A stretch of 64,000 nt of DNA from Candidatus Nealsonbacteria bacterium (GCA_026016225.1 CP061210.1:130000-193999); one strand, 5' to 3'. Counted from the stretch's first letter, positions 1 to 17,668 are shown. Notes: generated from the letters alone by a model not told the origin. Numbers and translations: made by a program.

Positions 1-1419
1 GGTACAATCTTAGATGTAATTGATGCCGCAGCCTCAGCTATTAAAAAAGAGGCGGAAAAGGAATCAGATATTGTAAGCACTTTCAAGAAAGCAATAGAAA
101 AAGCCGGTCAAGCTCTTCTAGCAACAAGAGAAAAAATGGAAATTTTTAAAAAAGCTAATGTGGTTGATGCCGGCGGTTTAGGTTTTTTAATTATTTTGGA
201 AAGTTTTTTGGGAGCTTTGGAAAAGCCTTCCATAGTTTTAGCTGCAGAGGACAGGGAAGAAATACCTTCAAAAAAAATTAAAAGGTTTATTCAGGTTCTT
301 GCTAACCGATATGAAGTTGTTTCTTTAATTGAGAATTCAAATTTTGACGAAGAGGAAGTTCAAGAAAAATTAAAAAAATTAGGGAACTGTCTGGATATCG
401 TTAAAGTTAAAAATAAAATGAAAATCCACATTCATACTGACTATCCAGATGAAGTAAAGAAAGTTATGGGGAGTTTAGGCCAAATCCAAAAATTAAGGGT
501 TGAAGATATGGCAAAGGAAGTAGTGGGAGAAGAATCTGTCAGAAAGATTTCCATCGGTATTATTACTGATGAAATAGCTGATTTAACCCCAAAAATTATT
601 GAACGTTATCAAATTGAAGTTATACCTTGTAAAGTTGATTGGCCTGAATCCAAACGCCTCAAAGGTAAGAATATTTATCAAAAAATGAGGAATGTGGAAA
701 AACAAAAAATTAAAAATTTACCAAAAACTTCTCAGCCTTCACCAAAAGAGTTTCTGGAAGCGTATAAAAGACAACTGAAAAATTTTGAAAAAGTTTTATG
801 CATTTCCCCTTCTTCAAAACTTTCCGGTGTTTACAACTTAGCTTGTCAGACAAGAGAAATGTTACCAGAAAAACAAAGAAAAAAAGTTTTTGTTTTAGAT
901 TCTTATAATGGTAGTTGCGGCCAAGCACTTTTGATTTTAAAGGCAATTGAGTTAATTCAGAGCCAAACAGAAATAGGGGAAATTATGCTTGAATTAAAAA
1001 AGGAAATTTCAAAAATTCAATTATACGCATTTTTAGCTGATCCAAAGTGGTTAGAGTGGGGAGGAAGAATTAACCGCTCCCAGGCTAACTGGATAAGACG
1101 GCTTCAGAAAATAGGAATAAAGCCTTTGTTAGGATTAAAAAAAGGGAAGATAGAGAAAATTGGTTTTCGGGCTAGAACAAAAGAATCTTCTGAAGCAATT
1201 TTTCGGGAGATAAAATCAAAAAGTAAAAAAATAAGAAAACAAAATAAAAAAATCAGGGTAATAATAACTCACTGCGATAATTCAAAAGAAACTAAAAAAT
1301 TAAAAAAGAAACTAAAAGAGATTAAAGCAGAAGTTTCCTTTATCAATTTAACGAGTTCAGTGGTTGGCGCTCATATAGGACCTGGGTCTTTACTTGCGGC
1401 CTGGATGACAATAGAATAA
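1..1419 (+). CDS. DAK2/FakA-like domain fused to a DegV (FakB-like) fatty-acid-binding domain; 5' end truncated by window edge
   Basis: The reading frame is open from base 1 (GTILDVIDAAAS...), so the start lies upstream. VVDAGGLGFLIILESF and KIHIHTDYPDEV resemble YloV/FakA-type DAK2 proteins. The C-terminal half has DegV hallmarks (ISIGIITDEIADL, TSQPSPKEF, SSKLSGVYN, VLDSYNGSCGQ). Confidence 0.7.
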   Translation, partial: GTILDVIDAAASAIKKEAEKESDIVSTFKKAIEKAGQALLATREKMEIFKKANVVDAGGLGFLIILESFLGALEKPSIVLAAEDREEIPSKKIKRFIQVLANRYEVVSLIENSNFDEEEVQEKLKKLGNCLDIVKVKNKMKIHIHTDYPDEVKKVMGSLGQIQKLRVEDMAKEVVGEESVRKISIGIITDEIADLTPKIIERYQIEVIPCKVDWPESKRLKGKNIYQKMRNVEKQKIKNLPKTSQPSPKEFLEAYKRQLKNFEKVLCISPSSKLSGVYNLACQTREMLPEKQRKKVFVLDSYNGSCGQALLILKAIELIQSQTEIGEIMLELKKEISKIQLYAFLADPKWLEWGGRINRSQANWIRRLQKIGIKPLLGLKKGKIEKIGFRARTKESSEAIFREIKSKSKKIRKQNKKIRVIITHCDNSKETKKLKKKLKEIKAEVSFINLTSSVVGAHIGPGSLLAAWMTIE

Positions 1420-1430: not shown

Positions 1431-2555
1431 ATGTATATTAAAGGCGTAGGAATGACAAAATTTGATTATTCTCAAAAGCCGTGGTGGCAAATGGTTTTTG
1501 AGTCTGCAATGGAAGCACTCAAGGATTCCTCAATGAAAATATCTGAAATTGATGCTATTGTTTTATCAACTGTTTCCAGCGCAGCTGGCGGAGAACACCA
1601 GACTCACAAAATATCTTTGCTTTCTGATTTATTTAAAACTCATATCCCCATTATTGAAACCCCATCTGTCTGTGCTGGAGGAGGGGTAGCTATATGGACG
1701 GCGAACCGCCTTAATTTTAATAATATTTTGGTAGTTAGCGGAGAAAAATTAGTAGATAATCGTAGTGAGATAACAGTGGACTGGATATTGTCTGCAGCAG
1801 AAAGAGTAATTGAACAAACAGAAGGATTACTTTTTCCAGTACAAAATGCTTTGGTCTGGCAGCAATATATGAAAACATACAAAGCGACAATGGATGATTT
1901 AGCTCTAATTGCCTTTAAGAATCATCAAAATGCTGCCTTGAACCCAAAGGCTTATTATTATAAACGTCCAGTTTCTCTGGAAAAAATCAAAAGTTCTCCC
2001 CTCGTCACTTCTCCTTTTCGGCTTATGGATTGTTCTTTATCAGTTAATGGGGGAGCTGCTGTAATTCTTTCAAAGGAAAAAACCGACATCGAAATTGTCG
2101 GCTCCGGGTTTGCTACAGATTATCTTTTAACTTTTGGGAGAGAAGAACTTCATCATTTTAAAGCGACGAGGATTGCAGTCAAACAGGCTTTTGAACAAGC
2201 AAAACTAACACCTAAAGATATTAAAATTGCTGAAGTTCATGACGCCTTTACCTCAGTGGAATTATTTTCTTATGAAGATTTGGGTTTTGCCGAAATTGGA
2301 AAGGGAGCAGAATTAATAAGGTCAGGTAAAGTAAATTTGGACGGAGAATTACCAATTAATACTTCGGGCGGCTTAAAAGCTAAAGGTCACCCTATTTCAG
2401 CCACAGGCATAGCTCAGATATATGAAATTGTCAATCAGCTACGAGGAAAATGCGGTCAAAGACAGGTAAACCCTATCCCTAAAATTGGTCTCTGCCACAA
2501 TATTGGCGGAACAGGCGGCAGCGTTACGGTTCACATTCTCAGGAAGAATGCTTGA
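1431..2555 (+). CDS. thiolase-fold enzyme (SCP-x/archaeal acetoacetyl-CoA thiolase-like)
   Basis: 374 aa. It has a PSVCAGGG nucleophile-Cys region and the C-terminal NTSGGLKAKGHPISATG and HNIGGTGG motifs typical of thiolases. Confidence 0.8.
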   Translation: MYIKGVGMTKFDYSQKPWWQMVFESAMEALKDSSMKISEIDAIVLSTVSSAAGGEHQTHKISLLSDLFKTHIPIIETPSVCAGGGVAIWTANRLNFNNILVVSGEKLVDNRSEITVDWILSAAERVIEQTEGLLFPVQNALVWQQYMKTYKATMDDLALIAFKNHQNAALNPKAYYYKRPVSLEKIKSSPLVTSPFRLMDCSLSVNGGAAVILSKEKTDIEIVGSGFATDYLLTFGREELHHFKATRIAVKQAFEQAKLTPKDIKIAEVHDAFTSVELFSYEDLGFAEIGKGAELIRSGKVNLDGELPINTSGGLKAKGHPISATGIAQIYEIVNQLRGKCGQRQVNPIPKIGLCHNIGGTGGSVTVHILRKNA

Positions 2556-3030
2556 ACTTTTTTAAAAGTTCTTTAAAAGTCTTTTTCGTCTTTTCAGAAA
2601 CTTCAATTAAGCAAATTCCCTTGTCAAAAAAACCATAGACCACGGCGCTGTGTTTTTCAGAAAGCAAAACAGCCGGTATTACCAAAAGGTCTTCTTCACC
2701 ATCTATAAATACATTTTTATTTTCTTTTATTGCTTTTTTAATTGTCATCCAAACTTTCTCTTGAATTGTACCGGGTGGATTTGAACAATTTAAAGAAAAG
2801 GGTAAAGATTTTTTAATCTTCTTTCTATTTATTTTCCCATCAAAGATTTTAATATCAGAAGAAAGACTTAAAGAACAAGAGTCGCCAATGGTAATTATTT
2901 TCTTAAACTTCCTTTCTTTAATAAGTTTTTTATACTTTTTTGCAATTTCTTTTTTCTTTCCAAAAATCGGTATTCCCCAAACCTTTCTCAGTTTAGGCCG
3001 AAGTTCGTCTGGTAGATAAAGTGTTTTCAT
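2539..3030 (-). CDS. DUF359 family protein (archaeal-type GTP-dependent dephospho-CoA kinase-like)
   Basis: 163 aa. IITIGDSCS and VFIDGEEDLLVIPAVLL match the conserved VGD / DGEEDL..PA blocks of DUF359. Its 3' end overlaps the convergent thiolase by 17 nt. Confidence 0.55.
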   Translation of the reverse strand: MKTLYLPDELRPKLRKVWGIPIFGKKKEIAKKYKKLIKERKFKKIITIGDSCSLSLSSDIKIFDGKINRKKIKKSLPFSLNCSNPPGTIQEKVWMTIKKAIKENKNVFIDGEEDLLVIPAVLLSEKHSAVVYGFFDKGICLIEVSEKTKKTFKELLKKFKHSS

Positions 3031-3081
3031 ACAATCTTAGTTTATCAAAATTAAATCATTTAATAAATTAATTCCAAAAAG

Positions 3082-4140
3082 ATGTTTTATCAATGTTTAA
3101 AATGTAAAAAAGTCTGGCAATATCCGATTAAAAAATGTCCAGAATGTTTTTCAGAATTAGAAAAAATTGTAAGTGAGAAAATTAAAGTAATTGGTGTTTC
3201 AAAAGTTAATATCCCTACCATCTTACACCCAAAAGTTCCTTATTTTGTCCTGCTCTTGGAAGATGAAAAGGGAAATCGCTGGACTCACAAATCAATAAAG
3301 GAATATAAAATCGGCGATAACTTTGTTTTAGAATCTATTCGAAAAAAAACAGCCGTAGCTGTCTGGCGGGTAAAATATGATATCTTAACAGCTGTTGAAA
3401 AAGCTATTGATTTGATAGGAGAGATAAAAATTAAGCAAAACTCCAAGATTTTAGTTTTACCTGCTCTTTTGTCTCCAAAACATCCCTATTTTTCTGAAAA
3501 TACCAGCCCCCAATTTTTAGAAGCTATAATTGAATATTTAATCCAAAAAGGTGTTAAAGATAAAAACATTAAAATAGCTTCTCAAAGTTTTAATGATTTT
3601 CCGATTGAAGCTTCAGCCCAAAAATCTCAGCTGCTACGTGTCTGTAGGGAAAACAAGGTTACTCTTTTGGATTTATCTAAAACAAACTTTGTAAAAAAAG
3701 AAAAAGATGGATTTTTGTTTGAAATCTCAGAAGAAGTGTTTAATAACGATTTAATAATTAATCTACCAATATTAAAAATTGACCCTAAGATAAAAGTTAA
3801 AGGAGCTGCAGAAAATGTTTTAAAATTTCTTAAAAAAGAGTCGTATCTTTCTTTAAAGTATCTTCACCCATATCAAGATTTGTTAAGAAAAATAGAAGAG
3901 ATTTTACCAAATTATCTAACTGTTGCAGAAGGAATCTCAATCCAAAAATCAACAAAGTATACCGCTCTCTTGGGTTTAGTTTTTGTCAGTTTTAATCCCT
4001 TTAATTTAGATAGGGTTTTTGCTGAAATTGCAATGATAAAAGATTTGCCAGAGTACCTCAAAAGTATTAAAATCGAAGATGTCCCGATTACGGGAAGACA
4101 GATTGAAGAATTGCAATATGATGTTGAAAAATTCTACTAA
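3082..4140 (+). CDS. DUF35 (zinc ribbon + OB fold) domain fused to a DUF362-like domain
   Basis: The N-terminus has YQCLKCKKVWQYPIKKCPEC (a 4-Cys ribbon) followed by an OB-like segment, as in thiolase-associated DUF35 proteins. The remainder (KILVLPALLSP...TSPQFLEAIIEYLIQKG) resembles DUF362. Confidence 0.55.
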   Translation: MFYQCLKCKKVWQYPIKKCPECFSELEKIVSEKIKVIGVSKVNIPTILHPKVPYFVLLLEDEKGNRWTHKSIKEYKIGDNFVLESIRKKTAVAVWRVKYDILTAVEKAIDLIGEIKIKQNSKILVLPALLSPKHPYFSENTSPQFLEAIIEYLIQKGVKDKNIKIASQSFNDFPIEASAQKSQLLRVCRENKVTLLDLSKTNFVKKEKDGFLFEISEEVFNNDLIINLPILKIDPKIKVKGAAENVLKFLKKESYLSLKYLHPYQDLLRKIEEILPNYLTVAEGISIQKSTKYTALLGLVFVSFNPFNLDRVFAEIAMIKDLPEYLKSIKIEDVPITGRQIEELQYDVEKFY

Positions 4141-4726
4141 AGGGAAAAACATAACTTTGATTACAGCTGTTTTGCCGCGAATTGAAAATAATTCTTTAGT
4201 AATAGTAAAAAATGTTATTTTAGTTTTAAGTTTTTCAATTTTAACCGCAATCTCCTCCAAGTTAAAAATCGAAATTGGCCCGATTCCTATAACTATGCAG
4301 ACATTGGTGGTTCTTTTAAGCGGAGCTTTATTAGGAAAAAAGAGAGGAACAGCGTCTCAGATTACTTATCTTTTTTTGGGTTTAATTGGTCTCCCCTGGT
4401 TTTCCAGAGGAGGAGGAATAGCTTATATCTTAAGCCCAACTTTTGGTTATATTTTAGGCTTTATATTAGCTGCTTATTTAGTCGGAGCTCTGTTCGAAAA
4501 GGGATGGGGTAAAAATATAATTTCGGCTTTTTTTGTAATGCTGATTGGAAATTATCTAATTTATATTCCCGGCCTTTTGTGGTTAGGAAACTTTATAGAA
4601 CCTTCAAGAATATTAATAATTGGTCTTTACCCTTTCATTTTCGGAGACCTTTTAAAAATATTTTTGGGAGGAATTATCTTATCTTTCAGCTGGAAAACTA
4701 TTAGCAAAAACAATAAAGTCGTATAA
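4118..4726 (+). CDS. bioY: biotin transporter BioY
   Basis: PIPITMQTLVVLLSGALLG and GYILGFILAAY are typical BioY blocks. The start was moved to the ATG at 4118, because the track start at 4079 overlaps the upstream gene. Confidence 0.8.
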   Translation: MMLKNSTKGKNITLITAVLPRIENNSLVIVKNVILVLSFSILTAISSKLKIEIGPIPITMQTLVVLLSGALLGKKRGTASQITYLFLGLIGLPWFSRGGGIAYILSPTFGYILGFILAAYLVGALFEKGWGKNIISAFFVMLIGNYLIYIPGLLWLGNFIEPSRILIIGLYPFIFGDLLKIFLGGIILSFSWKTISKNNKVV

Positions 4727-4762: not shown

Positions 4763-5503
4763 ATGTTAGAAGAAAAAGTAGTTCTTATTACGGGTTCTGC
4801 CCAAGGAATCGGCAGGGCAATTGCTTTAAAGTTTGCTTCTTTGAAAACCAGAATTGCTTTAAACGACATTCAAACCCAGGAAGAAAATTTAAAAAAACTA
4901 AAAGAAGAAATCGAAAAAAAGAACACAAAAGCTCAATATTTTTTAGCCGATGTTTCAAGATTAGAAGAGGTTGAAGAAATGATTCAAAAAATAGAAGCAG
5001 AATTTGGAAGATTAGATATTTTGGTTAACAATGCCGGAATTTGTAAAGACAAAACTTTAGCAAAAATGACAAAAGAGGAATGGCAGAAAGTAATTGATAT
5101 AGACTTAACCGGTGTATTTAACTGCACCAAAGCCAGCTTACCATTAATTATCCAAAATCAAGGAAAGATTATTAATGTTTCTTCTGTGGTCGGACAAAGA
5201 GGAAATTTTGGTCAAACAAACTATGCAGCAGCTAAAGCAGGAATAATTGGCTTTACTAAATCTTTATCTAAAGAAATAGGAAGGTTCGGAGTAACCGTAA
5301 ATGCTATTGCTCCAGGTTTTATTGAAACTAAACTTAGTGAAAATTTGTCAGATGAACTAAAGGTGATGATTAAAAAGTTAACTTCTTTGGGTAGATTTGG
5401 TAAACCAGAAGAAGTAGCTGAATTAGTTGCTTTTTTAGCTTCAGAAAATTCAAATTTTATAACCGGAGCTGTTATTAATATTGATGGTGGATTATCAATA
5501 TGA
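4763..5503 (+). CDS. fabG: 3-oxoacyl reductase (SDR, FabG-like)
   Basis: TGSAQGIGRA cofactor motif, NNAG, and YAAAKAG catalytic YxxxK; 246 aa. Confidence 0.85.
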   Translation: MLEEKVVLITGSAQGIGRAIALKFASLKTRIALNDIQTQEENLKKLKEEIEKKNTKAQYFLADVSRLEEVEEMIQKIEAEFGRLDILVNNAGICKDKTLAKMTKEEWQKVIDIDLTGVFNCTKASLPLIIQNQGKIINVSSVVGQRGNFGQTNYAAAKAGIIGFTKSLSKEIGRFGVTVNAIAPGFIETKLSENLSDELKVMIKKLTSLGRFGKPEEVAELVAFLASENSNFITGAVINIDGGLSI

Positions 5504-6993
5504 TGCTAAATAAAGACCAAATTAAAGAAATTATCCCTTATACAGAGCCTTTTTTATGGGTAGATGAAATAGAGAGCATCGAGGGTAACCTCATAATTGG
5601 TTATAAATATACCTCTCTGAAAGACTCTTATTTTAAGGGGCATTTTGTTGACTTTCCTATAATGCCTGGCGTATTGGTTATAGAAGGAATTGCCCAAACA
5701 GCAACTATTCTCTTAAGAAAAAAAATTGGTAAAATTCATAAACAAAAACATCTTTTAGCCCATCAGGTTAGAAGTGCTTTTTTTTATAAACCAATTTTTC
5801 CCGGGGATAAAATAAGGTATGAAGTTGAGCTTTTGGGATTTTATGGATATAAGATTGCTAATTTTAAAGGAGAAGCTTTTGTCGGAGATGAAAAAAAATG
5901 TGAAGTAAGATTTACAATTGCTGTTATAGAAAAAAAAGGATTTAAAGAAAAATACCAACAAAAAAAACAAGAAAAATCCCTACCTCAAACCAAATTGCCT
6001 CCTTTAAGAATTGGAGGACTTTTTGCAAAAATTCCAATTATTCAAGGTGGTATGGCAGTAAGAGTCTCATTGCATAATTTAGCCGGTAATGTGGCCAAAC
6101 AGGGAGCCGTAGGCATTATTGCTGTTTCTGGAATGAATAATCCTAATGAAGTTAAATCAGAAATAAAAAAAGCCAGGAAAATTGCAGGACCTAAAGGAAT
6201 TATTGGAATTAATATTATGGGAGTAGTAAGTCACTTTATTGAATTGGTAAAAGCTGCTATGGAAGAAAAAATTAATTTAGTCATCCAGGGAGCAGGATTT
6301 AGAAAAGATATCTTTGACTTGGGAGGAAAATATAATATTCCCATATTTTCAATGGCTTCTTCTGTCAGGGTTGCCAAAAAAGGAGAAGCTATGGGGGCAG
6401 AGGCAATAGTTGTTGAAGGAATGGAGGCCGGCGGTCATCTTGGTTTTCCAGAAAGTCACCCTTTTAGAAAAACAATTGATATTGTAAGAGAAGTTGTAAA
6501 AGCAGTAAAAACTCCGGTGATTGCAGCTGGAGGCATATTCAATGGAAAAGACATTGTAGAAATGTTAAGAGCGGGGGCTAAGGGAGTCCAGATGGCAACA
6601 AGGTTTGTTTCTACAAAAGAATGTGATGTTCATCAAAATTTTAAAGAGGCGCACCTGAAAGCAAAAAAAGAAGACGTTGTAATTATTCACTCTCCCGTGG
6701 GGCTTCCCGGCAGAGCAATCAAAAATACTTTGGTTGAAAAAATCTTAAAAGGGAAAGCTCCAAAACCAGACTTGAGAAAATGTCGGGGTTGTATAGGAAT
6801 GATTTGCGATAAAAGCTACTGCATCTTGGAAGTTTTAGAAAAAGCCCGTAAGGGTGACGTAGAAAATGGATTAATCTTTGCAGGTTCTAATGTCTGGAGA
6901 GTTAATAAAATAGTTTCTGTGAAAGAACTAATCCAGGAGTTAGTAAGGGAGGCTAACGAGATTTTAAAACATAAACCCTTAATGGAGTATTAA
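5500..6993 (+). CDS. FabZ-like hotdog dehydratase fused to FabK/nitronate-monooxygenase-like enoyl reductase domain
   Basis: The N-terminal roughly 140 aa carry GHFVDFPIMPGVLVIEGIAQ (FabZ/FabA signature). The C-terminal part has IIQGGMA, VVEGMEAGGHLG and AAGGI motifs of the FMN TIM-barrel FabK/NMO family. Confidence 0.7.
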   Translation: MMLNKDQIKEIIPYTEPFLWVDEIESIEGNLIIGYKYTSLKDSYFKGHFVDFPIMPGVLVIEGIAQTATILLRKKIGKIHKQKHLLAHQVRSAFFYKPIFPGDKIRYEVELLGFYGYKIANFKGEAFVGDEKKCEVRFTIAVIEKKGFKEKYQQKKQEKSLPQTKLPPLRIGGLFAKIPIIQGGMAVRVSLHNLAGNVAKQGAVGIIAVSGMNNPNEVKSEIKKARKIAGPKGIIGINIMGVVSHFIELVKAAMEEKINLVIQGAGFRKDIFDLGGKYNIPIFSMASSVRVAKKGEAMGAEAIVVEGMEAGGHLGFPESHPFRKTIDIVREVVKAVKTPVIAAGGIFNGKDIVEMLRAGAKGVQMATRFVSTKECDVHQNFKEAHLKAKKEDVVIIHSPVGLPGRAIKNTLVEKILKGKAPKPDLRKCRGCIGMICDKSYCILEVLEKARKGDVENGLIFAGSNVWRVNKIVSVKELIQELVREANEILKHKPLMEY

Positions 6994-7013: not shown

Positions 7014-7952
7014 ATGATAGGAACCAAACTCACCAAACTCTTAAATATTAAATATCCCATAATCCAGGGGGGGATGGCTGGAATTTCAGATTCAATTTTA
7101 GTTTCTGCTGTTTCTAATGCCGGAGGATTAGGGGTAATTGGTTCTGGTTTTCTTCCTCCAAAATGGTTAGAGGAAGAAATTAAAAAAACCAAAGAATTAA
7201 CTGATAAACCTTTTGGAGTTAATCTTTTAATGAGAAACCCGAAAGTAGCAGAATTAGCAAAAATTGTAATTCGAGAAAAAATTCCTGTTATTTTTACCGG
7301 AGGAGGAAATCCCCTTCCTTTATTTCCTCATTTAAAAAAGGTTGGTATTAAAGTTATTCCTGTAGTCGCCTTATCAAGATTAGCTAAAAAAATGGAAGAT
7401 AGCTATGCTGATGCTGTAGTAGTGGAAGGTTTTGAATCCGGAGGCCATATTGGCAGAGTGACAACAATAGCTTTGGTCCCTCAGACAAAAAAATTAATAG
7501 AAAAAATTCCTTTAATTGCTGCAGGCGGCATCTATGATGCAAAAACTGCTTTAGCTTGCTTTATCCTGGGAGCTGACGGCATTCAGATGGGCACAAGATT
7601 CTTAGTAAGCAAGGAATGTCAGATTCATGAGAATTATAAAAAAGCTGTTCTGGAAGCAACAGATGAAAATATCATCGTAGCAGCAAGGTTCACTGGTTAT
7701 CCGGTAAGAGCGATAGAAAATGAATTAACAAAAAGGGTTCAGAAGCTGGAAGAAAAAAATCCTTTCCCGGAAGAGATAAGGGCAGATAGATTCTCCAGCT
7801 CAAAAATAGAAAGCGGAAATATAGAGCAAGCTCCTCTTCTTTGCGGGCTTTGTGCTGGAGGAATTTCAAAGATAAAAAGCTGTAAAGAAATAATAGAGGA
7901 AATTATGGAAGGTTCAAAGAAAATAATAAAAGAAGTAGATAAAGATTTATAA
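7014..7952 (+). CDS. fabK: enoyl reductase II (FabK / NMO family)
   Basis: IIQGGMAGIS, VVEGFESGGHIG and AAGGIYD motifs; 312 aa. Confidence 0.75.
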   Translation: MIGTKLTKLLNIKYPIIQGGMAGISDSILVSAVSNAGGLGVIGSGFLPPKWLEEEIKKTKELTDKPFGVNLLMRNPKVAELAKIVIREKIPVIFTGGGNPLPLFPHLKKVGIKVIPVVALSRLAKKMEDSYADAVVVEGFESGGHIGRVTTIALVPQTKKLIEKIPLIAAGGIYDAKTALACFILGADGIQMGTRFLVSKECQIHENYKKAVLEATDENIIVAARFTGYPVRAIENELTKRVQKLEEKNPFPEEIRADRFSSSKIESGNIEQAPLLCGLCAGGISKIKSCKEIIEEIMEGSKKIIKEVDKDL

Positions 7953-7962: not shown

Positions 7963-8625
7963 ATGAACAGAGCAGTCTCTTGGTTTTGTAAAATATTTCT
8001 TGCTCCCATTGTCAAAAAACTATTAATAAAAGAAGTGGAAGGATGGAAAAACATTCCTAAAGGAAATTTTATCTTAGCTACAAATCATCAAAGTCATTTA
8101 GATGAGTTAGCTACCGGCTATGTCTGTGTTCCAAGACGGTATCACTTCATTGGTCAAACAGATAGTTACACAGGTCCTACCAAATTTTTACTCTATATTT
8201 TATATTTTATTGCCGGGGTAATTCCTTTAAACAGGAAATGTGAAGAATCAAAAAAAAGAGCAGTAAAAAAAGCAATCGAAGTTTTGAAAAAGGGAGATAT
8301 TTTAATAATTTATCCTGAGGGCACAAGAACAAGAACGGGGAAAATAGGAAGGGGTAAGTGGGGAACAGCCAGGATTTTTTTAAAAACAGGTGTCCCGATA
8401 TTGCCGGCAGGTATTAAGGGAACCTTTGAACTTATGCCTCCTGGAAAAAAATTTAAAATAAAAAAAATAATTAAAATTAACATTGGAAAACCTCTTTATT
8501 TTAAAGAAGAATTTGAAAAAGCAAAAAACTTAAATAAAAACTCAAAAGAGTATAGGTTCTTGCTTCAGAAAATAACTAATAAGATAATGGGAGAAATATC
8601 TAATTTGCAAAAAAGCATAAAATAA
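7963..8625 (+). CDS. plsC: 1-acyl-sn-glycerol-3-phosphate acyltransferase
   Basis: NHQSHLDE (HX4D) and YPEGTRT acyltransferase motifs. Confidence 0.8.
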   Translation: MNRAVSWFCKIFLAPIVKKLLIKEVEGWKNIPKGNFILATNHQSHLDELATGYVCVPRRYHFIGQTDSYTGPTKFLLYILYFIAGVIPLNRKCEESKKRAVKKAIEVLKKGDILIIYPEGTRTRTGKIGRGKWGTARIFLKTGVPILPAGIKGTFELMPPGKKFKIKKIIKINIGKPLYFKEEFEKAKNLNKNSKEYRFLLQKITNKIMGEISNLQKSIK

Positions 8626-8626
8626 T

Positions 8627-10168
8627 ATGACAATTAAAAAAATTCTCATTGCAAACAGGGGGGAGATTGCTCTGCGAATAATTAGAACATGTCAAGAAAT
8701 GGAAATTAAAACCGTTGCCCTTTGTCCTTTGCCAGGACAAGAACAAAATTTCCTTGAGACAAGACTGGCCGACGAATACTATTTCTTAAATAAAGAGGGA
8801 GCTGAAGGTTATCTGGATAAAAAAAAGATTGTTGAAATTGCCAAAAAAGCCAAAGTTGATGCTATTCATCCTGGTTATGGATTCTTATCTGAGAATTGGA
8901 GATTTGCCAGGCTTTGTCAGAAAAACAAAATTTGGTTTATTGGTCCCCATTTCAAGATGTTAAAAAAATTAGAAGATAAAATTGAAGCTAAAAGAATTGC
9001 TCAAAAAGCCGGTATCCCCACGCTTCCTGCAAGTAAGGGTCCCATTAAAACAAAAAAAGACTTGGTAAAATGGGTTGGGCAAATTAAGCCTCCTTTTGTC
9101 TTAAAAGCACAAAAAGGAGGAGGAGGAATCGGTATTCGGGTGATAAATGGAAAAATTGATTTTGGTAATCTTTTTACAATTTCCAGCGGAATTCAGAGGC
9201 AAATAGCTACGGCTTTTTCTGAAACAGATTTTTTCCTTGAAAAACATCTCCCAAATGCAAGGCATATTGAAGTTCAGATATTAGGAGATAAAAAAAAGGT
9301 ACTCCATCTCGGAGAAAGAGAATGTACTATTCAAAGAAGATTTCAAAAACTGTTCGAAGAAGCGCCCTCTCCTTTTCTTGATGATAAAGAAAGAGAAAAA
9401 ATAAGAAATTTAGCGGTAAAATTTGGCAAAAGATTAAGATATCGAGGAGTGGGCACGATTGAGTTTTTAGTGGATGAAAATAAAAATTTTTATTTTTTAG
9501 AAACCAATCCTCGACTCCAGGTAGAACACCCTATTACGGAAGCAATAACAGGTATCGATATGGTGGAACAGCAAATTAGAATTGCTCAAGGACAAGAGAT
9601 TCCTTTTTCTCAAGACGATGTTTTCTTTAATGGCTGGGCAGTAGAAGCACGAATTAATGCCGAAGACCCAAAAAAGAACTTTCAACCTGCACCTGGCGTT
9701 ATCCAGAAATATCTCCCTCCCGGAGGACAGGGAATTTTCTTGCATACCTTTTTACACGAGGGACAAGAAATTTATCCTTACTTTGATTCACTTTTAGCAA
9801 AGATTATTGCCCATGGAAAAACGAGGAAAGAAGCTATTTCTCGTTTAAAGAGGGTTTTAGATGAGATTGCTATTGAGGGAGTTCCAACCACTATTCCTTT
9901 TTTCAAGCTCCTTTTAAAAGATGAAAATTTCCTGAAAGGAAACTTTACCACTAACTTTATTGAAAAAAGCAAGATTTTACAAAAGTTATCCCCTCAAATT
10001 TGTCCCAAAAGACCCTTAAAAACCAGGGAGATAGAAGAAAAAGAATTAGCCAATATCATTTTTCAAATTTACAAAACTTTGAAAAGTTCAGAAAGTATTT
10101 CTCCTGAAAAAAAAGTTTCTGCATCAAACTGGGTAATGGCTGAAAGATCAAAAATGCTTAACGAATAA
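8627..10168 (+). CDS. accC: biotin carboxylase subunit of acyl-CoA carboxylase
   Basis: KILIANRGEIALRI, the ATP-grasp glycine-rich loop KAQKGGGGIGIRV, and EFLVDENKNFYFLETNPRLQVEHP. Confidence 0.9.
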   Translation: MTIKKILIANRGEIALRIIRTCQEMEIKTVALCPLPGQEQNFLETRLADEYYFLNKEGAEGYLDKKKIVEIAKKAKVDAIHPGYGFLSENWRFARLCQKNKIWFIGPHFKMLKKLEDKIEAKRIAQKAGIPTLPASKGPIKTKKDLVKWVGQIKPPFVLKAQKGGGGIGIRVINGKIDFGNLFTISSGIQRQIATAFSETDFFLEKHLPNARHIEVQILGDKKKVLHLGERECTIQRRFQKLFEEAPSPFLDDKEREKIRNLAVKFGKRLRYRGVGTIEFLVDENKNFYFLETNPRLQVEHPITEAITGIDMVEQQIRIAQGQEIPFSQDDVFFNGWAVEARINAEDPKKNFQPAPGVIQKYLPPGGQGIFLHTFLHEGQEIYPYFDSLLAKIIAHGKTRKEAISRLKRVLDEIAIEGVPTTIPFFKLLLKDENFLKGNFTTNFIEKSKILQKLSPQICPKRPLKTREIEEKELANIIFQIYKTLKSSESISPEKKVSASNWVMAERSKMLNE

Positions 10169-10174
10169 ATTTTT

Positions 10175-10561
10175 ATGAACTTAAAAATAAACATTCAAGG
10201 TAAAGAATACGATGTAGAAATTAAAAGATTAAACAAAGATAAAGTGAAGATAAAGGTAGGAAAAGAAGAGTTTATTTTTGAAGAGAAAGAAAAAGAGAAA
10301 GAGAAAATTGTAGTTGCAAAAACCGCTTTGCCTAAAAGAAAATTTAAAACAAAAGAAATTAAAGCCCCTATTGCGGGGACAGTTTCAGAAGTTTTTGTTA
10401 AAGAAAACGAATTCATTAAAAAAGGGAGGAAAGTTGTTTTGTTATCTGCAATGAAAATGGAAAATGAAATAATTTCTGAATTTGAAGGAAGGGTAAAAAA
10501 AATTTTGGCAAAAAAAGAGCAGAAGGTTAAAGAAGGGAAGGTCTTAATTATTTTAGAATAA
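10175..10561 (+). CDS. accB: biotin carboxyl carrier protein
   Basis: C-terminal biotinyl domain with the SAMKMENEI (AMKM) biotinylation motif. Confidence 0.8.
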   Translation: MNLKINIQGKEYDVEIKRLNKDKVKIKVGKEEFIFEEKEKEKEKIVVAKTALPKRKFKTKEIKAPIAGTVSEVFVKENEFIKKGRKVVLLSAMKMENEIISEFEGRVKKILAKKEQKVKEGKVLIILE

Positions 10562-10574
10562 CGTTAAAGAAATT

Positions 10575-11093
10575 ATGAAATTTAAAAAATATAAGAGAAT
10601 TTCTTCGACTAACGCTCTGGCAAAAAAGGTAAAGCATGAACCATGGCTGGTCATCTGGGCAGAAGAACAAACTGCGGGATACGGAAGAAAAAAAGATTAC
10701 TGGTTTTCTCCAAAAGGCGGACTTTATTTTTCGGTTGTTTTGCCAAAAAGCACCATTGATGATTTGCAAACTCTAACTATTTTAGCAGCTTTTGTAGTAG
10801 CTAAAGTGATGAAAGAAAATTTTAATGTAGAACCCATGATTAAATTACCAAATGATGTTTATCTAAACCAAAAAAAGATAGCTGGCATTTTAACAGAAAC
10901 TGTTGTGGGAACTAATGTTAAATTTTCAATAATGGGATTCGGTTTAAATACAAATATTGATAAATTTCCAAAAGATTTGGAAAATATTGCTACATCCCTT
11001 AAAATAGAATTAGGTAAAAAAGTAGACAATGAAAAAATTCTAAAACAAATAATAGAAGAGATAAAAAATCAATTAAGGACAATAAGCGAATAG
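10575..11093 (+). CDS. birA: biotin--protein ligase (short, no DNA-binding domain)
   Basis: GYGRKKDYWFSPKGGLYFSVVL matches the GRGRxWxSxxGxL BirA motif, and KLPNDVYLNQKKIAGIL is also typical. Confidence 0.7.
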   Translation: MKFKKYKRISSTNALAKKVKHEPWLVIWAEEQTAGYGRKKDYWFSPKGGLYFSVVLPKSTIDDLQTLTILAAFVVAKVMKENFNVEPMIKLPNDVYLNQKKIAGILTETVVGTNVKFSIMGFGLNTNIDKFPKDLENIATSLKIELGKKVDNEKILKQIIEEIKNQLRTISE

Positions 11094-11105
11094 TTTAAAT
11101 CCTAT

Positions 11106-12656
11106 ATGGCTTTTGAAAAAGAAATTAAAAAATTAAACGAAAAAATGCAAAGTCTGGAAAATCCAGATTTAATTGAAAAACAACACCAGAAAGGAAAACT
11201 AACTGCCAGAGAAAGGATTAACCTACTTTTAGACGTGGGTAGTTTTGTTGAATTAGATGCACTTGTTGAAACCAGATTTAGTAATCTTGGTCTGGATAAA
11301 AAGAAGTTCCCGGGCGATGCAGTAATTACTGGTTTTGGAAAAGTAAGTAAGAGGCAGGTTTATGTTTACAGCCAAGATTTTTCAAAAATAGGAGGTTCCT
11401 CAGGTGAAATGCACAGCAAAAAAATCATCAAGATTATTAATCTTGCCAGAAAAACAGGTTGTCCCTCAATAGGAATAATTGACTCTGGAGGAGCTAGAAT
11501 CCAGGAAGGGATATCAAGTCTTGAAGGATATGCGGGTATTTTTAGTGAAATGATTAAGTCCTCGGGAGTAATTCCTCAAATATCTATAATTGTTGGGCCA
11601 TCGGCCGGAGGCGCATCATACGCTCCTGGTTTATCAGACTTTGTATTCATGGTTGAGAGAATATCTCAAATGTATATCACGGGACCTAAAGTAATTAAAA
11701 AAGTTACAGGAGAAACGGTTTCTTTTGAAGATTTAGGAGGAGCTGTTGTCCACAGCTCAAAAAGCGGTTGTGCTCATTTTTCTTTTGATTCTGAAAAAGA
11801 GTGCTTTTTGGCAGTAAAAAGACTTCTTTCTTATTTACCGCAAAATAATATGGAAGACCCTCCAAGAGAAAGAAGTTTTCTTGCTGAACTCTTCGAAAAA
11901 GAACAAAGCTATAGGTTATTAGAGATATTGCCAGAAAAAGAAGAAAAGAGTTATGATATGAAAGAAATAATTGAGGAGATTTTTGATAAAAATTCTTTTT
12001 TTGAAGTTCAATCAAACTTTGCCGTAAATTCAATAGTGGGCTTTGTTAAATTAGGAGGTTTAGTGGTCGGCATTGTTGCCAACCAAACAAAATTTATGGC
12101 AGGCACCCTTGATATCGATTCTTCGGACAAAATCGCCCGTTTTGTTAGATTCTGTGATGCATTTAACATTCCCTTGATTAACTTGGTAGATACTCCCGGC
12201 TATCTTCCGGGAAAGGAACAAGAAAAAAAAGGAATAATCCGGCATGGAGCTAAAATATTGTATGCCTTCTCAGAAGCTACTGTTCCCAAAATCAGTTTAA
12301 TTATAAGAAAGGCCTTTGGAGGAGCTTATATTGCTTTAGCCTCTCGCCAGCTGGGGTATGATAAGATAATTGCCTGGCCATCAGCACAGATTGCGGTAAT
12401 GGGTCCTGAACAGGCAGTAAAAATTATCTATAAAAAAGAGCTGACAAAGAGTAAAGACCCAAAGAAATTAGAGAAAGATAAAGTTCAAGAATTAAAAGAA
12501 CTGTTCTTAAATCCCTATCAGGCAGCTAAACTCGGTTATATTGATATGATAATTAATCCAAAAGACACCAGGGTCATCCTAATAAAGTGTATGGAATCGC
12601 TTTTGAATAAAAGAGAAAGTAAAGTTGCCAAAAAACACGGAAATATACCTTTATAA
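11106..12656 (+). CDS. acyl-CoA carboxylase carboxyltransferase subunit (PccB/AccD5-like)
   Basis: 516 aa fused alpha/beta carboxyltransferase. It has QHQKGKLTARERI, GGARIQEG and FGGAY motifs. Confidence 0.85.
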   Translation: MAFEKEIKKLNEKMQSLENPDLIEKQHQKGKLTARERINLLLDVGSFVELDALVETRFSNLGLDKKKFPGDAVITGFGKVSKRQVYVYSQDFSKIGGSSGEMHSKKIIKIINLARKTGCPSIGIIDSGGARIQEGISSLEGYAGIFSEMIKSSGVIPQISIIVGPSAGGASYAPGLSDFVFMVERISQMYITGPKVIKKVTGETVSFEDLGGAVVHSSKSGCAHFSFDSEKECFLAVKRLLSYLPQNNMEDPPRERSFLAELFEKEQSYRLLEILPEKEEKSYDMKEIIEEIFDKNSFFEVQSNFAVNSIVGFVKLGGLVVGIVANQTKFMAGTLDIDSSDKIARFVRFCDAFNIPLINLVDTPGYLPGKEQEKKGIIRHGAKILYAFSEATVPKISLIIRKAFGGAYIALASRQLGYDKIIAWPSAQIAVMGPEQAVKIIYKKELTKSKDPKKLEKDKVQELKELFLNPYQAAKLGYIDMIINPKDTRVILIKCMESLLNKRESKVAKKHGNIPL

Positions 12657-12679
12657 GAACGTTTGGTTAATTGGTTAAT

Positions 12680-13273: not shown

Positions 13274-13283
13274 TAATACATCT

Positions 13284-17555: not shown

Positions 17556-17627
17556 AGCGGGCGAAGGGAATCGAACCCTCATCATGGCCTTGGAAGGGCC
17601 AGATAATAGCCGTTATACGACGCCCGC
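17556..17627 (-). tRNA. tRNA-Gly (anticodon UCC)
   Basis: The reverse complement folds as a cloverleaf. Acceptor is GCGGGCG/CGCCCGC, anticodon stem TGGCC/GGCCA with loop CTTCCAA, and T-arm GAGGG-TTCGATT-CCCTT. No encoded CCA. Confidence 0.85.
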
Positions 17628-17668
17628 AAATTCAGCGAAGGTGAATAGTTTTGCAAAGCAAAACTTAA

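What the first reader, a model, noticed from the sequence alone, without database searches (positions are those of the whole stretch)
1431..4140. Thiolase next to a DUF35-DUF362 fusion
Seen: the 352-aa protein starts with a 4-Cys zinc ribbon plus an OB-like segment (DUF35 pattern) and continues into a roughly 230-aa region resembling DUF362. It lies 527 bp downstream of the thiolase gene, and the DUF359 gene sits convergent between the two. Known: in archaea DUF35 proteins scaffold thiolase (and HMG-CoA synthase) complexes. No HMG-CoA synthase is present in this window. Inference: the DUF362 addition could supply a new partner activity or cofactor site to a thiolase complex. I do not recognise this domain combination as described.
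Basis: partly seen in the sequence, partly recalled or inferred. Interest (0 to 1): 0.55.

Follow-up and report, generated by a model that had tools for sequence, protein, structure and literature searches.

The report
Thiolase adaptor in ACP-free lipid cluster
The 352-aa protein is a real fusion of a thiolase-binding zinc-ribbon/OB module (DUF35) with a stripped-down LarA-like (DUF362) domain, and it lies in a gene cluster conserved in tiny symbiotic bacteria and archaea that looks like a fatty-acid synthase built on a thiolase and coenzyme A instead of the usual ketosynthase and acyl carrier protein.

Summary
ORF 3082-4140 (+) is one intact 352-aa protein. It has a DUF35-type C-x2-C-x10-C-x2-C zinc ribbon and OB fold (about res 1-98). 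Pfam misses this part, but fold comparison recovers it. A DUF362/LarA-like domain follows (Pfam E=1.8e-14). It is not a frameshift artefact: 533 homologues were found, and the 120 listed are nearly all full length.

The fusion follows a thiolase in 63 of 75 related loci, often 4-20 bp apart. The pair heads a conserved Patescibacteria cluster: FakA/FakB, thiolase, a CoA-synthesis gene, the fusion, BioY, FabG, FabZ-FabK, FabK, PlsC, a biotin acyl-CoA carboxylase, biotin ligase and PlsY x2. I found no ACP, FabD, FabH/F, AcpS or PlsX.

A longer form (~485 aa) sits in a similar cluster in DPANN archaea. The window's DUF362 domain lacks the family's Lys/His motif residues and the last ~130 aa of the fold. 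The partner thiolase has Ala where SCP2-type thiolases carry the HDCF cysteine reported as catalytic.

Best reading: it is the adaptor subunit of a thiolase-based, CoA-dependent condensing enzyme that probably uses malonyl-CoA. This could explain the "incomplete" fatty-acid pathway reported for the cultured Minisyncoccus archaeiphilus. What the DUF362 remnant does is still inferred.

The parts
136..1419 (+). FakA-middle + DegV/FakB-like fatty-acid kinase fusion; the 5' end is cut by the window edge
   Evidence: Pfam DegV 2.9e-50 and FakA-like_M 1.6e-15. NCBIfam DegV and FakB1. The full 594-aa Dak2-FakA_M-DegV version is seen in L001.
1431..2555 (+). Archaeal/SCP2-type thiolase, 374 aa. Cys81, His270-Asp271, His320 and Asn357 are conserved, but the motif is HDAF (Ala272) instead of HDCF.
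   Evidence: Pfam Thiolase_C_1 2.5e-43. NCBIfam PRK06064 9.2e-96. PDB 7yvy 2.5e-62 and 6esq_A 2.9e-48. Motif statistics over 68 thiolases.
2539..3030 (-). DUF359 protein, a homologue of the archaeal GTP-dependent dephospho-CoA kinase, inserted between the thiolase and the fusion gene
   Evidence: Pfam DUF359 3.3e-28. NCBIfam deph_CoA_kin_Thcocales 1.2e-21, below its cut-off. Present at this position in 37 of 75 loci. Fused to a PPAT-like domain in L001.
3082..4140 (+). The 352-aa DUF35-DUF362 fusion protein (the finding)
3082..3375 (+). N-terminal DUF35-type module (about res 1-98): C4 zinc ribbon C5/C8/C19/C22 plus OB fold
   Evidence: Canonical C-x2-C-x10-C-x2-C spacing. Foldseek hits to 7pyt_A, 6ok1_D and 6esq_E at E about 4e-4. 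Profile hits to 6esq_E and 6htj. The Pfam models are below threshold.
3451..4023 (+). DUF362 / LarA-like domain (res 124-314), remodelled and C-terminally truncated. The conserved loop 131-143, SPKHPYFSENTSP, has low model confidence.
   Evidence: Pfam PF04015 1.8e-14. Foldseek 7s91 3.5e-8. Motif comparison. pLDDT <50 for residues 132-139.
4079..4726 (+). BioY biotin transporter. The real start is probably an internal Met near 4118.
   Evidence: Pfam BioY 1.1e-40.
4763..5503 (+). FabG-type 3-oxoacyl reductase
   Evidence: Pfam adh_short_C2 5.4e-68. NCBIfam 3oxo_ACP_reduc 2.6e-88. Found downstream of the fusion in 65 of 75 loci.
5500..6993 (+). FabZ-FabK fusion (dehydratase plus enoyl reductase II)
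   Evidence: Pfam FabA 5e-19 and NMO 2.4e-54. NCBIfam FabZ and FabK.
7014..7952 (+). Second FabK enoyl reductase
   Evidence: NCBIfam enACPred_II 1.1e-106.
7963..8625 (+). PlsC-type acyltransferase
   Evidence: Pfam Acyltransferase 6.2e-25.
8627..12656 (+). Biotin-dependent acyl-CoA carboxylase set: biotin carboxylase 8627-10168, BCCP 10175-10561, biotin-protein ligase 10575-11093, carboxyltransferase 11106-12656
   Evidence: Pfam. NCBIfam accC 6.1e-164 and the mmdA/PccB-type carboxyltransferase 7.7e-216.
12671..13952 (+). Two PlsY glycerol-3-phosphate acyltransferases (12671-13273 and 13284-13952)
   Evidence: Pfam G3P_acyltransf 5.7e-37 and 2.1e-30.

Best explanation
The 352-aa protein is the adaptor subunit of a thiolase-based condensing enzyme. 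That enzyme belongs to a CoA-dependent, ACP-independent fatty-acid synthesis or elongation module of Patescibacteria.

Proposed mechanism:
1. The N-terminal zinc ribbon and OB fold (DUF35) clamp onto the dimer of the neighbouring thiolase, as DUF35 does in the solved thiolase/HMGCS, BbsAB, Ltp2-ChsH2 and PhlABC complexes.
2. The fused LarA-like (DUF362) domain has lost the family's Lys/His chemistry and half of its cleft. It is held at the thiolase as a non-redox platform. It most likely holds or hands over CoA thioesters, or docks the next enzymes (FabG, FabZ-FabK), so that the 3-ketoacyl-CoA is pulled forward.
3. The thiolase lacks the HDCF cysteine (reported as the catalytic second Cys in SCP2-type thiolases), and a biotin acyl-CoA carboxylase is always co-encoded. 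Condensation is therefore probably decarboxylative, with malonyl-CoA as the extender.
4. FabG, FabZ and FabK complete each cycle on CoA esters. PlsC, PlsY and FakA/FakB feed the products, or scavenged fatty acids, into phospholipid.

Shown: the domain identities, the conserved synteny, the motif losses, and the absence of ACP/KAS genes in the sequence available.
Inferred: the physical complex, malonyl-CoA use, and the role of the DUF362 remnant.
For: Domains.

Thiolase partnership:
- A thiolase is found within 4.5 kb upstream, on the same strand, in 63 of 75 loci. There are 53 complete pairs, many 4-20 bp apart or overlapping.
- The pairing persists in distant long forms outside any Fab cluster (L081, L082) and in DPANN archaea (L076, L084, L085).
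- The same short DUF35 type is fused to 3-hydroxyacyl-CoA dehydrogenase in other proteins. This fits the rule that DUF35 tethers a pathway neighbour to a thiolase-fold enzyme (PMC12329534).

Pathway context, out of 75 loci: FabG 65, FabZ 56, FabK 49, PlsC 49, AccC 45, BCCP 44, BPL 40, CT 39.

No ACP or ketosynthase:
- tblastn found no ACP, FabD, FabH, FabF, AcpS or PlsX in the window or L001-L004 at E<=1, nor in the 75 related loci then held (L001-L075) at E<=1e-5.
- A CoA-biosynthesis gene (DUF359, with or without PPAT) is embedded in the cluster.

Thiolase chemistry:
- HDAF in 64 of 68 thiolases. These are the Patescibacteria thiolases and two L076 thiolases; the cluster thiolases of L084 and L085 also read HDAF.
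- HDCF only in the three thiolases (L081, L082, L083) paired with motif-intact fusions outside carboxylase clusters; the HMGCS-linked L076 thiolase has HDSF.
- PDB 4bi9 (HDCF) and 4bia (HDAF) show the same substitution between two deposited versions of one SCP2-type thiolase. The HDCF Cys is reported as the catalytic cysteine (PMC7682436).

Precedent: the S. acidocaldarius KT/DUF35 + FabG-like + dehydratase complex makes fatty acyl-CoAs without ACP.

Open question it answers: the complete genome of the cultured Minisyncoccus archaeiphilus carries MNSC_05910 thiolase, 05920 DUF362 protein, 05930 FabG, 05940 FabA-like, 05950 FabK and 05970 AccC. Its authors state that no complete pathway exists and that the role of these genes is unclear.
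Against: - No physical or biochemical evidence exists.
- The Pfam DUF35 models do not reach threshold.
- In this window the thiolase and the fusion are separated by an opposite-strand gene, so they are not obviously co-transcribed here.
- Absence of ACP/KAS was tested only in the window, about 20-kb flanks of 75 related loci, part of one annotation table, and one paper's statement. It was not tested on whole genomes.
- The HDAF argument is weaker than it looks. PDB 7yvy, deposited as acetyl-CoA acetyltransferase, also reads HDAF. An HMGCS-linked DPANN thiolase has HDSF. Cys201 is invariant in the HDAF set and its role was not assessed.
- The DUF362 remnant keeps a strictly conserved polar set: N140, T141, Q168, K181, S182, N227 and N245 in at least 78 of 80 sequences. 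It may therefore still be catalytic or ligand-binding rather than a passive scaffold.
- The S. acidocaldarius system was judged non-decarboxylative by its authors.
Confidence: 0.55

Rival explanations
1. The DUF362 domain is still an enzyme or cofactor site. It would supply what the Cys-less thiolase lacks. For example, the invariant His134 loop could act as the general base, or the domain could provide a malonyl-CoA binding and decarboxylation site. The fusion would then be a catalytic subunit of a new kind of ketoacyl-CoA synthase.
For: - A distinct residue set is conserved: H134 in 75/80, N140 in 80/80, Q168 in 80/80, K181 in 78/80, N245 in 80/80. Q168 and the Lys-to-Glu change at position 244 are shared with the DPANN long forms.
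- The conserved loop 131-143 has low model confidence, as mobile functional loops often do.
- The HDAF thiolases co-occur with exactly this remodelled clade.
Against: - The positions aligned with the His (LELH) and Lys (GGHK) of the LarA homologue Mar2 are unconstrained: D, deleted, N or H at one; E, N, D or Q at the other.
- The second half of the LarA-like cleft is deleted.
- No known DUF362 activity exists to extrapolate from. In the literature it appears only as an uncharacterised outgroup of the LarA family.
Confidence: 0.25
2. The cluster does not synthesise fatty acids de novo. It remodels, elongates or degrades scavenged host lipids. The thiolase/fusion pair would work thiolytically or on a special CoA ester, and the carboxylase would serve another purpose.
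For: - FakA/FakB and PlsY point to uptake of free fatty acids.
- These organisms are reduced-genome symbionts (PMC12281837).
- The carboxyltransferase is of the MmdA/PccB type, so its substrate is undetermined.
Against: - FabG, FabZ and FabK are biosynthetic-direction enzymes.
- No acyl-CoA dehydrogenase/ETF or S-specific hydratase/dehydrogenase appears in the cluster.
- An ATP-dependent biotin carboxylase, BCCP, biotin ligase and BioY are conserved with it.
- Elongation of scavenged acyl chains would use the same proposed mechanism, so this rival differs mainly in the primer.
Confidence: 0.15
3. The N-terminal zinc ribbon and OB fold are not a thiolase adaptor but a nucleic-acid or other binding module, like the DUF35-fold translation recovery factor Trf (6htj). 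The DUF362 protein would then act independently of the thiolase.
For: 6htj is among the top sequence and fold hits. The Pfam DUF35 models are below threshold.
Against: - Gene adjacency with a thiolase is conserved from Patescibacteria to DPANN, and also in unrelated contexts.
- Most of the fold hits are thiolase-bound DUF35 chains.
Confidence: 0.04
4. Artefact: two genes merged by a sequencing or assembly frameshift.
For: None found.
Against: - 533 homologues from independent assemblies were found. Of the 120 listed, nearly all are full length (346-388 aa, 98-100% query coverage).
- The alignment is contiguous across the domain junction.
- The single-chain model is confident, with pTM 0.87.
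Confidence: 0.01

Closest known systems
[quoted passage not shown]
   Same: The thiolase is of the same archaeal/SCP2 type (6esq_A, 2.9e-48). The partner has the same C4 zinc ribbon plus OB fold (6esq_E is the top sequence hit, and a fold hit with 28% identity). The idea that DUF35 holds the next enzyme at the thiolase is also shared.
   Different: There is no HMG-CoA synthase here. The partner is fused to a LarA-like domain instead of being a free 130-aa protein. The thiolase has HDAF, not HDCF. The context is fatty-acid synthesis, not mevalonate.
Archaeal fatty-acid synthase complex of Sulfolobus acidocaldarius (KT Saci_1121 / DUF35 Saci_1120 + FabG-like ACR + MaoC dehydratase; bioRxiv 10.1101/2024.07.05.601840)
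   Same: A thiolase + DUF35 pair acts as the condensing enzyme of an ACP-independent, CoA-based fatty-acid pathway, with a FabG-type reductase and a hot-dog dehydratase.
   Different: - Here the dehydratase is FabZ-type and the enoyl reductase is FabK, not MaoC and MDR types.
- An acyl-CoA carboxylase is part of the cluster, whereas the Sulfolobus pathway was judged non-decarboxylative.
- The DUF35 carries a DUF362 domain.
- The hosts are Patescibacteria and DPANN. Those authors reported their DUF35 clade as restricted to archaea.
DUF35 fused to pathway enzymes: ChsH2 and Shy (MaoC hydratase-DUF35) with Ltp2/Sal aldolases (6OK1, 9MYR), and DUF35-3-hydroxyacyl-CoA dehydrogenase fusions
   Same: DUF35 is used as a covalently attached tether that brings a second protein to a thiolase-fold enzyme (PMC12329534). 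The N-terminal module of the window protein is 40-47% identical to that of the dehydrogenase fusions.
   Different: The attached domain is DUF362/LarA-like, of unknown function, with its family motifs lost. I found no paper describing this combination.
DUF362 (PF04015) and the LarA / DUF2088 lactate-racemase superfamily (Pfam clan CL0471)
   Same: The Pfam match is above threshold and the fold matches LarA and Mar2. T141, P143, N227 and N245 are shared with all DUF362 proteins examined.
   Different: The Lys of KPN, His of KTH, Lys of KN and the EGxGP motif are replaced. The C-terminal ~130 aa, including the Cys-rich or ferredoxin-like part, is absent. A nickel-pincer-type chemistry is not expected.
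Bacterial type II fatty-acid synthesis with FabK (Streptococcus type)
   Same: FabG, FabZ, FabK, an acyl-CoA carboxylase, PlsC, PlsY and FakA/FakB homologues.
   Different: No ACP, FabD, FabH/FabF, AcpS or PlsX was found in the window or in any related locus searched. A thiolase stands where the ketosynthase should be.

Membership tests
DUF35 (PF12172 zf-ChsH2 + PF01796 OB_ChsH2_C; COG1545) | C4 rubredoxin-like zinc ribbon, C-x2-C-x10-C-x2-C | tested here: met
   C5, C8, C19 and C22 have exactly this spacing. They are invariant in alignments A1 and A3. The canonical spacing is quoted in PMC12329534.
DUF35 (PF12172 zf-ChsH2 + PF01796 OB_ChsH2_C; COG1545) | OB fold following the ribbon; overall fold like solved DUF35 proteins | tested here: met
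   Foldseek: 7pyt_A, 6ok1_D, 6esq_E, 5m3k_B, 9vbt and 6htj at E 4e-4 to 6e-3, probability 1.00, target TM 0.43-0.50. The long form gives the same hits.
DUF35 (PF12172 zf-ChsH2 + PF01796 OB_ChsH2_C; COG1545) | Scores above the curated Pfam thresholds | tested here: not met
   zf-ChsH2 gives 13.4 bits against a cut-off of 23.2. PF01796 is not hit. Ten of 35 relatives hit zf-ChsH2 with best E=0.0011, none above threshold. This is a divergent clade.
DUF35 (PF12172 zf-ChsH2 + PF01796 OB_ChsH2_C; COG1545) | Encoded next to, and complexed with, a thiolase-fold protein | tested here: inconclusive
   Adjacency is met: 63 of 75 loci, 53 complete pairs, many 4-20 bp apart. The physical complex cannot be tested with these tools.
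DUF362 (PF04015) | Pfam model above the gathering score | tested here: met
   54.7 bits against 24, E=1.8e-14, profile positions 2-199 of 200.
DUF362 (PF04015) | Family-conserved motifs KPN, T(T/N)xP, KTH, KN and EGxGP | tested here: not met
   Only T141-x-P143 and N245 are kept. The Lys of KPN is 0/80, the His of KTH 2/80 and the Lys of KN 0/80 in short forms, against 11/11 in intact forms.
DUF362 (PF04015) | C-terminal Cys-rich or ferredoxin-like extension completing the two-domain fold | tested here: not met
   The protein ends about 10 residues after the DUF362 core. The long form aligns with LarA over up to 485 columns, the window protein over about 250-300.
LarA-type nickel-pincer racemases (DUF2088) | Cofactor-tethering Lys and catalytic His | tested here: not met
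   In the Mar2 alignment the His (LELH) and the Lys (GGHK) align with D234 and E244 of the window protein. That these are LarA's catalytic His and tethering Lys is from memory. Both positions are variable in the family.
LarA-type nickel-pincer racemases (DUF2088) | LarB/LarC/LarE cofactor-synthesis genes | not tested
   None appeared among the 39 window ORFs scanned with Pfam, but no dedicated search was made.
Archaeal thiolase/HMGCS/DUF35 mevalonate complex | HMG-CoA synthase partner gene | tested here: not met
   No HMGCS in the window, and no HMGCS-like gene in the four Patescibacteria loci whose gene calls were read (L001-L004). It is present only as a separate trio in DPANN loci L076 and L085.
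ACP-independent archaeal-type fatty-acid synthase (KT/DUF35 based) | Thiolase + DUF35 pair with a FabG-like reductase and a hot-dog dehydratase in one genomic module | tested here: met
   Thiolase 63, FabG 65 and FabZ 56 of 75 loci, in conserved order.
ACP-independent archaeal-type fatty-acid synthase (KT/DUF35 based) | No ACP, ACP synthase, FabD or KAS in the genome | tested here: inconclusive
   None in the window (or L001-L004) at E<=1, and none in the 75 related loci L001-L075 at E<=1e-5. None in the held part of the M. archaeiphilus annotation table, and its authors list none. Whole genomes could not be scanned.
ACP-independent archaeal-type fatty-acid synthase (KT/DUF35 based) | Non-decarboxylative condensation driven by channelling | not testable with these tools
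   The co-encoded carboxylase and the HDAF thiolase argue for malonyl-CoA use instead. Only an enzyme assay can decide.
Bacterial type II FAS | ACP, FabD and a FabH/FabF/FabB ketosynthase | tested here: not met
   tblastn with the E. coli and B. subtilis proteins found nothing.

The most novel reading that the evidence does not exclude
Patescibacteria (CPR) and DPANN archaea share a previously unrecognised fatty-acid synthase that has no acyl carrier protein and no ketosynthase. A thiolase that has lost its HDCF cysteine would work together with a DUF35-tethered, remodelled LarA-like domain as a new kind of malonyl-CoA-dependent ketoacyl-CoA synthase. This would mean that many "lipid-auxotrophic" ultra-small symbionts can in fact make or elongate fatty acids. 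It would also mean the module moved between the two domains of life.
Probability: 0.3. Interest if true: 0.85.

Novelty: new variant of a known kind. Interest (0 to 1): 0.7.

Why it matters
CPR bacteria and DPANN archaea are usually described as unable to make their own membrane lipids. The description of the first cultured Patescibacterium says explicitly that its FabG/FabA-like/FabK/AccC genes form an incomplete pathway whose role is unclear (PMC12281837).

That paper's list of fatty-acid genes omits the two genes just upstream, a thiolase and this "DUF362 protein", even though its annotation table lists them. Together they are a plausible missing condensing enzyme, and they remove the need for ACP.

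If this is right, it would:
- revise the metabolic picture of a very large part of microbial diversity;
- extend the recently proposed archaeal DUF35-based fatty-acid synthase to bacteria;
- bear on the bacterial/archaeal "lipid divide";
- give DUF362, a domain with no assigned function in the papers I could search, its first pathway context;
- point to a thiolase-fold enzyme that may use malonyl-CoA, which is of interest for engineered CoA-based chain elongation.

Tried and rejected
- **Pfam and NCBIfam on the N-terminus.** Only sub-threshold zinc-ribbon hits. Sequence alone cannot place it in DUF35; fold and context were needed.
- **phmmer/hmmsearch against PDB with the full protein or alignment A1.** DUF35 and Mar2 came out on top, but at E 0.4-0.8. 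A more diverse N-terminal profile improved this only to E=0.015.
- **Idea that the long DUF362 form is the missing enoyl reductase of the DPANN clusters, decaying after FabK arrived in Patescibacteria.** Set aside. DPANN MAGs are reported to carry a FabI-type reductase (PMC10936187), extra SDR genes sit in those loci, and only three DPANN loci were seen.
- **Contexts of motif-intact relatives (P0164, P0205).** Short contigs with glycan-type neighbours, uninformative.
- **Context of the DUF35-dehydrogenase fusion P0193.** The contig is only 1.6 kb.
- **Identity of PDB 7yvy, a thiolase that also reads HDAF.** No paper found, so it remains a caveat.
- **Model of the thiolase + fusion complex.** Paired sequences from 53 loci were prepared but never submitted. 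The structure tool folds one chain and accepts only unmodified window or database proteins. The second job went to the DPANN long form instead.
- **Frameshift-artefact reading.** Rejected.

Full report
**1. What is in the sequence**

The window is low-GC (about 33%) bacterial chromosome. It carries dnaA, dnaN, a class A PBP, a Mur ligase and RtcB. Close homologues of the protein are named Nealsonbacteria, Parcubacteria or Patescibacteria.

- Thiolase, 1431-2555 (+).
- DUF359, 2539-3030 (-). It overlaps the thiolase 3' end by 17 nt, and its start is 51 nt from the start of the next gene.
- A 352-aa ORF, 3082-4140 (+).

**2. The fusion is real**

*DUF362 half.* Pfam finds DUF362 at residues 124-314 (E=1.8e-14, nearly the whole model).

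*DUF35 half, by sequence.* The N-terminus reads C5-x2-C8-x10-C19-x2-C22. This is the canonical DUF35 zinc-finger spacing (PMC12329534). The Pfam DUF35 models stay below threshold. Profile searches put DUF35 structures first but only weakly: 6esq_E at E=0.015 and 6htj at E=0.017, and hhalign at E=8.9e-4.

*Both halves, by fold.* The AlphaFold2 model (pLDDT 87, pTM 0.87) matches:
- LarA and malate racemases with its C-terminal two thirds (7s91, E=3.5e-8).
- Thiolase-bound DUF35 chains with its first ~100 residues. These are BbsA 7pyt_A, ChsH2 6ok1_D, 6esq_E, PhlB 5m3k_B and MucB 9vbt, at E about 4e-4, probability 1.00 and target TM about 0.5.

*One gene, not two.* There are 533 homologues. Of the 120 listed, nearly all are full length at 59-99% identity and align contiguously across the junction.

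**3. It is a thiolase partner**

A scan of one genome per species found 71 loci. Almost all records are titled Patescibacteria, Paceibacterota, Nealsonbacteria, Minisyncoccales, "Saccharibacteria" or simply bacterium. Two are titled otherwise: L066, Pacearchaeota archaeon, and L067, Humimicrobiaceae. Complete genomes of about 650-690 kb are included.

Across these plus four metagenome loci:
- A thiolase lies upstream on the same strand in 63 of 75 loci.
- In 53 complete pairs the gap is often 4-20 bp, or the genes overlap.
- DUF359 is an insertion between the two genes in about half of the loci (37 of 75).

The pairing survives great divergence:
- Long relatives (460-495 aa, 30-40% identical) follow a thiolase in DPANN archaea (L076, L084 from a Woesearchaeota genome, L085).
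- They also follow a thiolase in unrelated contexts (L081, L082).
- The same short DUF35 module is fused to 3-hydroxyacyl-CoA dehydrogenase in other proteins.

This fits the known role of DUF35 as a tether between a thiolase-fold enzyme and a pathway neighbour.

**4.

In the window the pair heads this gene series:

| Gene | Role |
|---|---|
| FakA-DegV | fatty-acid kinase fusion |
| thiolase | condensing-enzyme candidate |
| DUF359 | dephospho-CoA kinase family |
| fusion | DUF35-DUF362 |
| BioY | biotin transporter |
| FabG | 3-oxoacyl reductase |
| FabZ-FabK | dehydratase + enoyl reductase |
| FabK | enoyl reductase |
| PlsC | acyltransferase |
| biotin carboxylase, BCCP, biotin ligase, carboxyltransferase | acyl-CoA carboxylase set |
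| PlsY, PlsY | G3P acyltransferases |

The order is conserved. Counts out of 75 loci are FabG 65, FabZ 56, FabK 49, PlsC 49, AccC 45, BCCP 44, BPL 40 and CT 39. These are limited mainly by contig ends.

tblastn with the E. coli and B. subtilis proteins found no ACP, FabD, FabH, FabF, AcpS or PlsX. The window and L001-L004 were searched at E<=1, and the 75 loci L001-L075 at E<=1e-5.

The only condensing-enzyme candidate is therefore the thiolase. A CoA-biosynthesis gene is embedded in the cluster, and in L001 it is fused to a PPAT-like domain.

The cultured Minisyncoccus archaeiphilus has the same series, MNSC_05910 to MNSC_05970. Its describers write that the genome lacks a complete fatty-acid pathway and that the role of AccC, FabK, FabG and the FabA-like gene "remains unclear". 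Their list of fatty-acid genes does not include the thiolase or the DUF362 protein. The held part of their annotation table has no ACP, FabD, FabH, FabF or PlsX orthologue numbers.

**5. State of the DUF362 domain**

I aligned stand-alone DUF362 proteins, long fusions and short fusions.

*Intact members* (6 stand-alone, 5 long) share:
- the motifs KPN, T(T/N)xP, KTH, KN and EGxGP;
- a C-terminal Cys-rich or ferredoxin-like part.

In a profile alignment to the LarA homologue Mar2, the positions that carry the His of KTH and the Lys of KN in intact DUF362 proteins fall on Mar2's His (LELH) and Lys (GGHK). From memory, these are the catalytic His and the cofactor-tethering Lys of LarA enzymes.

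*The 80 short Patescibacteria forms* differ:
- The Lys of KPN is always L, I or V.
- The His position is D (40), deleted (36), N (2) or H (2).
- The Lys of KN is E, N, D or Q, never K.

*The 38 DPANN long forms* are intermediate: KPN is kept, the His position is N or H, and the Lys is E in 35 of 38.

*Fold coverage.* The long form folds as DUF35 plus a complete two-domain LarA-like protein, with up to 485 aligned columns against 9eia. The window protein covers only about 250-300 columns. It has lost the last ~130 residues.

*What is still conserved.* N140, T141, Q168, K181, S182, N227 and N245 are essentially invariant. H134 is conserved in 75 of 80 and sits in a loop, SPKHPYFxENTSP, that the model cannot place (pLDDT <50).

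The pocket is therefore remodelled rather than simply decayed. LarA-like chemistry is very unlikely. Ligand binding or a docking role is likely.

**6. State of the thiolase**

Cys81, His270-Asp271, His320 and Asn357 are invariant in 68 thiolases from these loci.

The HDCF loop of SCP2/archaeal thiolases reads HDAF in 64 of the 68 thiolases aligned. These are the Patescibacteria ones and two L076 thiolases; the cluster thiolases of L084 and L085, checked separately, also read HDAF. It is HDCF only in the three thiolases paired with motif-intact fusions outside carboxylase clusters.

The HDCF cysteine is reported to be the catalytic second cysteine of this thiolase class (PMC7682436, citing Harijan 2013). 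PDB holds one such enzyme in both forms: 4bi9 with HDCF and 4bia with HDAF.

A thiolase without that cysteine, always co-encoded with an ATP-dependent acyl-CoA carboxylase, suggests a decarboxylative Claisen condensation with malonyl-CoA, as in ketosynthases.

Caveats:
- 7yvy, deposited as an acetyl-CoA acetyltransferase, also has HDAF.
- A DPANN thiolase linked to HMGCS has HDSF.
- Cys201 is invariant in the HDAF set and its role was not assessed.
- The carboxyltransferase is of the MmdA/PccB type, so its substrate is undetermined.

**7. Most likely mechanism**

Shown: the domain identities, the synteny, the motif losses, and the local absence of ACP and ketosynthase genes.

Inferred:
1. The DUF35 module binds the thiolase dimer.
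2. The tethered LarA-like remnant acts as a CoA-ester-holding or enzyme-docking platform.
3. The thiolase condenses acyl-CoA with malonyl-CoA made by the co-encoded carboxylase.
4. FabG, FabZ and FabK finish the cycle on CoA esters.
5. PlsC, PlsY and FakAB use the products or scavenged fatty acids.

The nearest precedent is the Sulfolobus KT/DUF35 + FabG-like + dehydratase complex. The nearest structural precedent is 6ESQ.

My confidence by step:
- Thiolase-adaptor role within a fatty-acid module: about 0.75-0.8.
- Non-catalytic role of DUF362: about 0.45.
- Malonyl-CoA use: about 0.4.

**8. Novelty**

- No paper in the searchable library mentions DUF35 together with DUF362.
- DUF362 appears in the literature only as an uncharacterised outgroup of LarA.
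- DPANN papers note FabG, FabI, FabZ and G3P dehydrogenase genes but not this pair.
- Database annotation occasionally shows both COG labels on one protein, so the architecture is implicit in databases but undescribed.

I class it as a new variant of a known kind, namely DUF35-mediated thiolase complexes and ACP-independent fatty-acid synthesis. It bears directly on an openly stated question for Patescibacteria.

Noticed in passing
window 5500-6993 (+) and 7014-7952 (+): A single ORF fuses a FabZ-type dehydratase (res 15-135) to a FabK enoyl reductase (res 246-484), and a second stand-alone FabK follows. In some relatives (L001) FabZ and FabK are separate genes.
   Followed up: partly
window 2539-3030 (-); L001 9060-9977: A homologue of the archaeal GTP-dependent dephospho-CoA kinase (DUF359) sits inside a bacterial lipid cluster. 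In L001 and L002 it is fused to a PPAT-like CTP_transf_like domain, so the last two CoA-synthesis steps would be in one protein.
   Followed up: partly
window 38791-42657 (+): A 1288-aa TraG/VirB4-like P-loop ATPase is interrupted by an intein with a LAGLIDADG homing-endonuclease domain (res 333-684). Nearby are a TrwB/VirD4-like coupling protein (25035-27488), a T4SS-pilin-like protein (32686-33948) and an 841-aa ORF with no Pfam hit (34008-36533).
   Followed up: no
window 45981-48605 (+): dnaA and dnaN lie side by side, so the window probably includes or adjoins the replication origin.
   Followed up: no
window 17556-17985: Three tRNA genes, two on the minus strand and one on the plus strand, between RNase Y and a NYN-domain gene.
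   Followed up: no
L076 8360-16818; L084 2793-14418; L085 371-19406: DPANN (Woesearchaeota-type) loci carry a ~485-aa long form of the fusion in a cluster of carboxylase genes, FabZ, thiolase, the fusion, a second HDAF thiolase and a CoA transferase. FabG follows the fusion directly in L076 and L084 and lies ~3.5 kb downstream in L085. L076 and L085 also have a separate HMGCS-like/thiolase/canonical DUF35 trio nearby. L084 also has a bacterial-type G3P dehydrogenase and two PlsC-like genes. No FabK was seen.
   Followed up: partly
P0193, P0198, P0211, P0232 (proteins): The same short DUF35 module (40-47% identical over ~85 aa) is fused to a complete 3-hydroxyacyl-CoA dehydrogenase (3HCDH_N + 3HCDH). 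This is a second way of tethering a pathway enzyme to a thiolase.
   Followed up: partly
L081 1476-6574: A motif-intact long fusion (P0154) follows an HDCF thiolase, and a GNAT acetyltransferase and a radical SAM enzyme come next instead of Fab genes. The ancestral thiolase + DUF35-DUF362 pair may therefore serve another, unknown pathway.
   Followed up: no
L084 8929-10004: In the Woesearchaeota genome GCA_016187465.1 the thiolase upstream of the fusion is called as two ORFs (174 aa and 135 aa). This is a possible frameshift or pseudogene.
   Followed up: no
L076 14371-15519; L085 16790-17899: The DPANN thiolases linked to the HMGCS-like gene lack the HDCF cysteine (HDSF in L076; no HDxF-type motif matched in L085) but have a Cys two residues before the GHP histidine (KACGHP). 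This may be an alternative position for the catalytic base.
   Followed up: no
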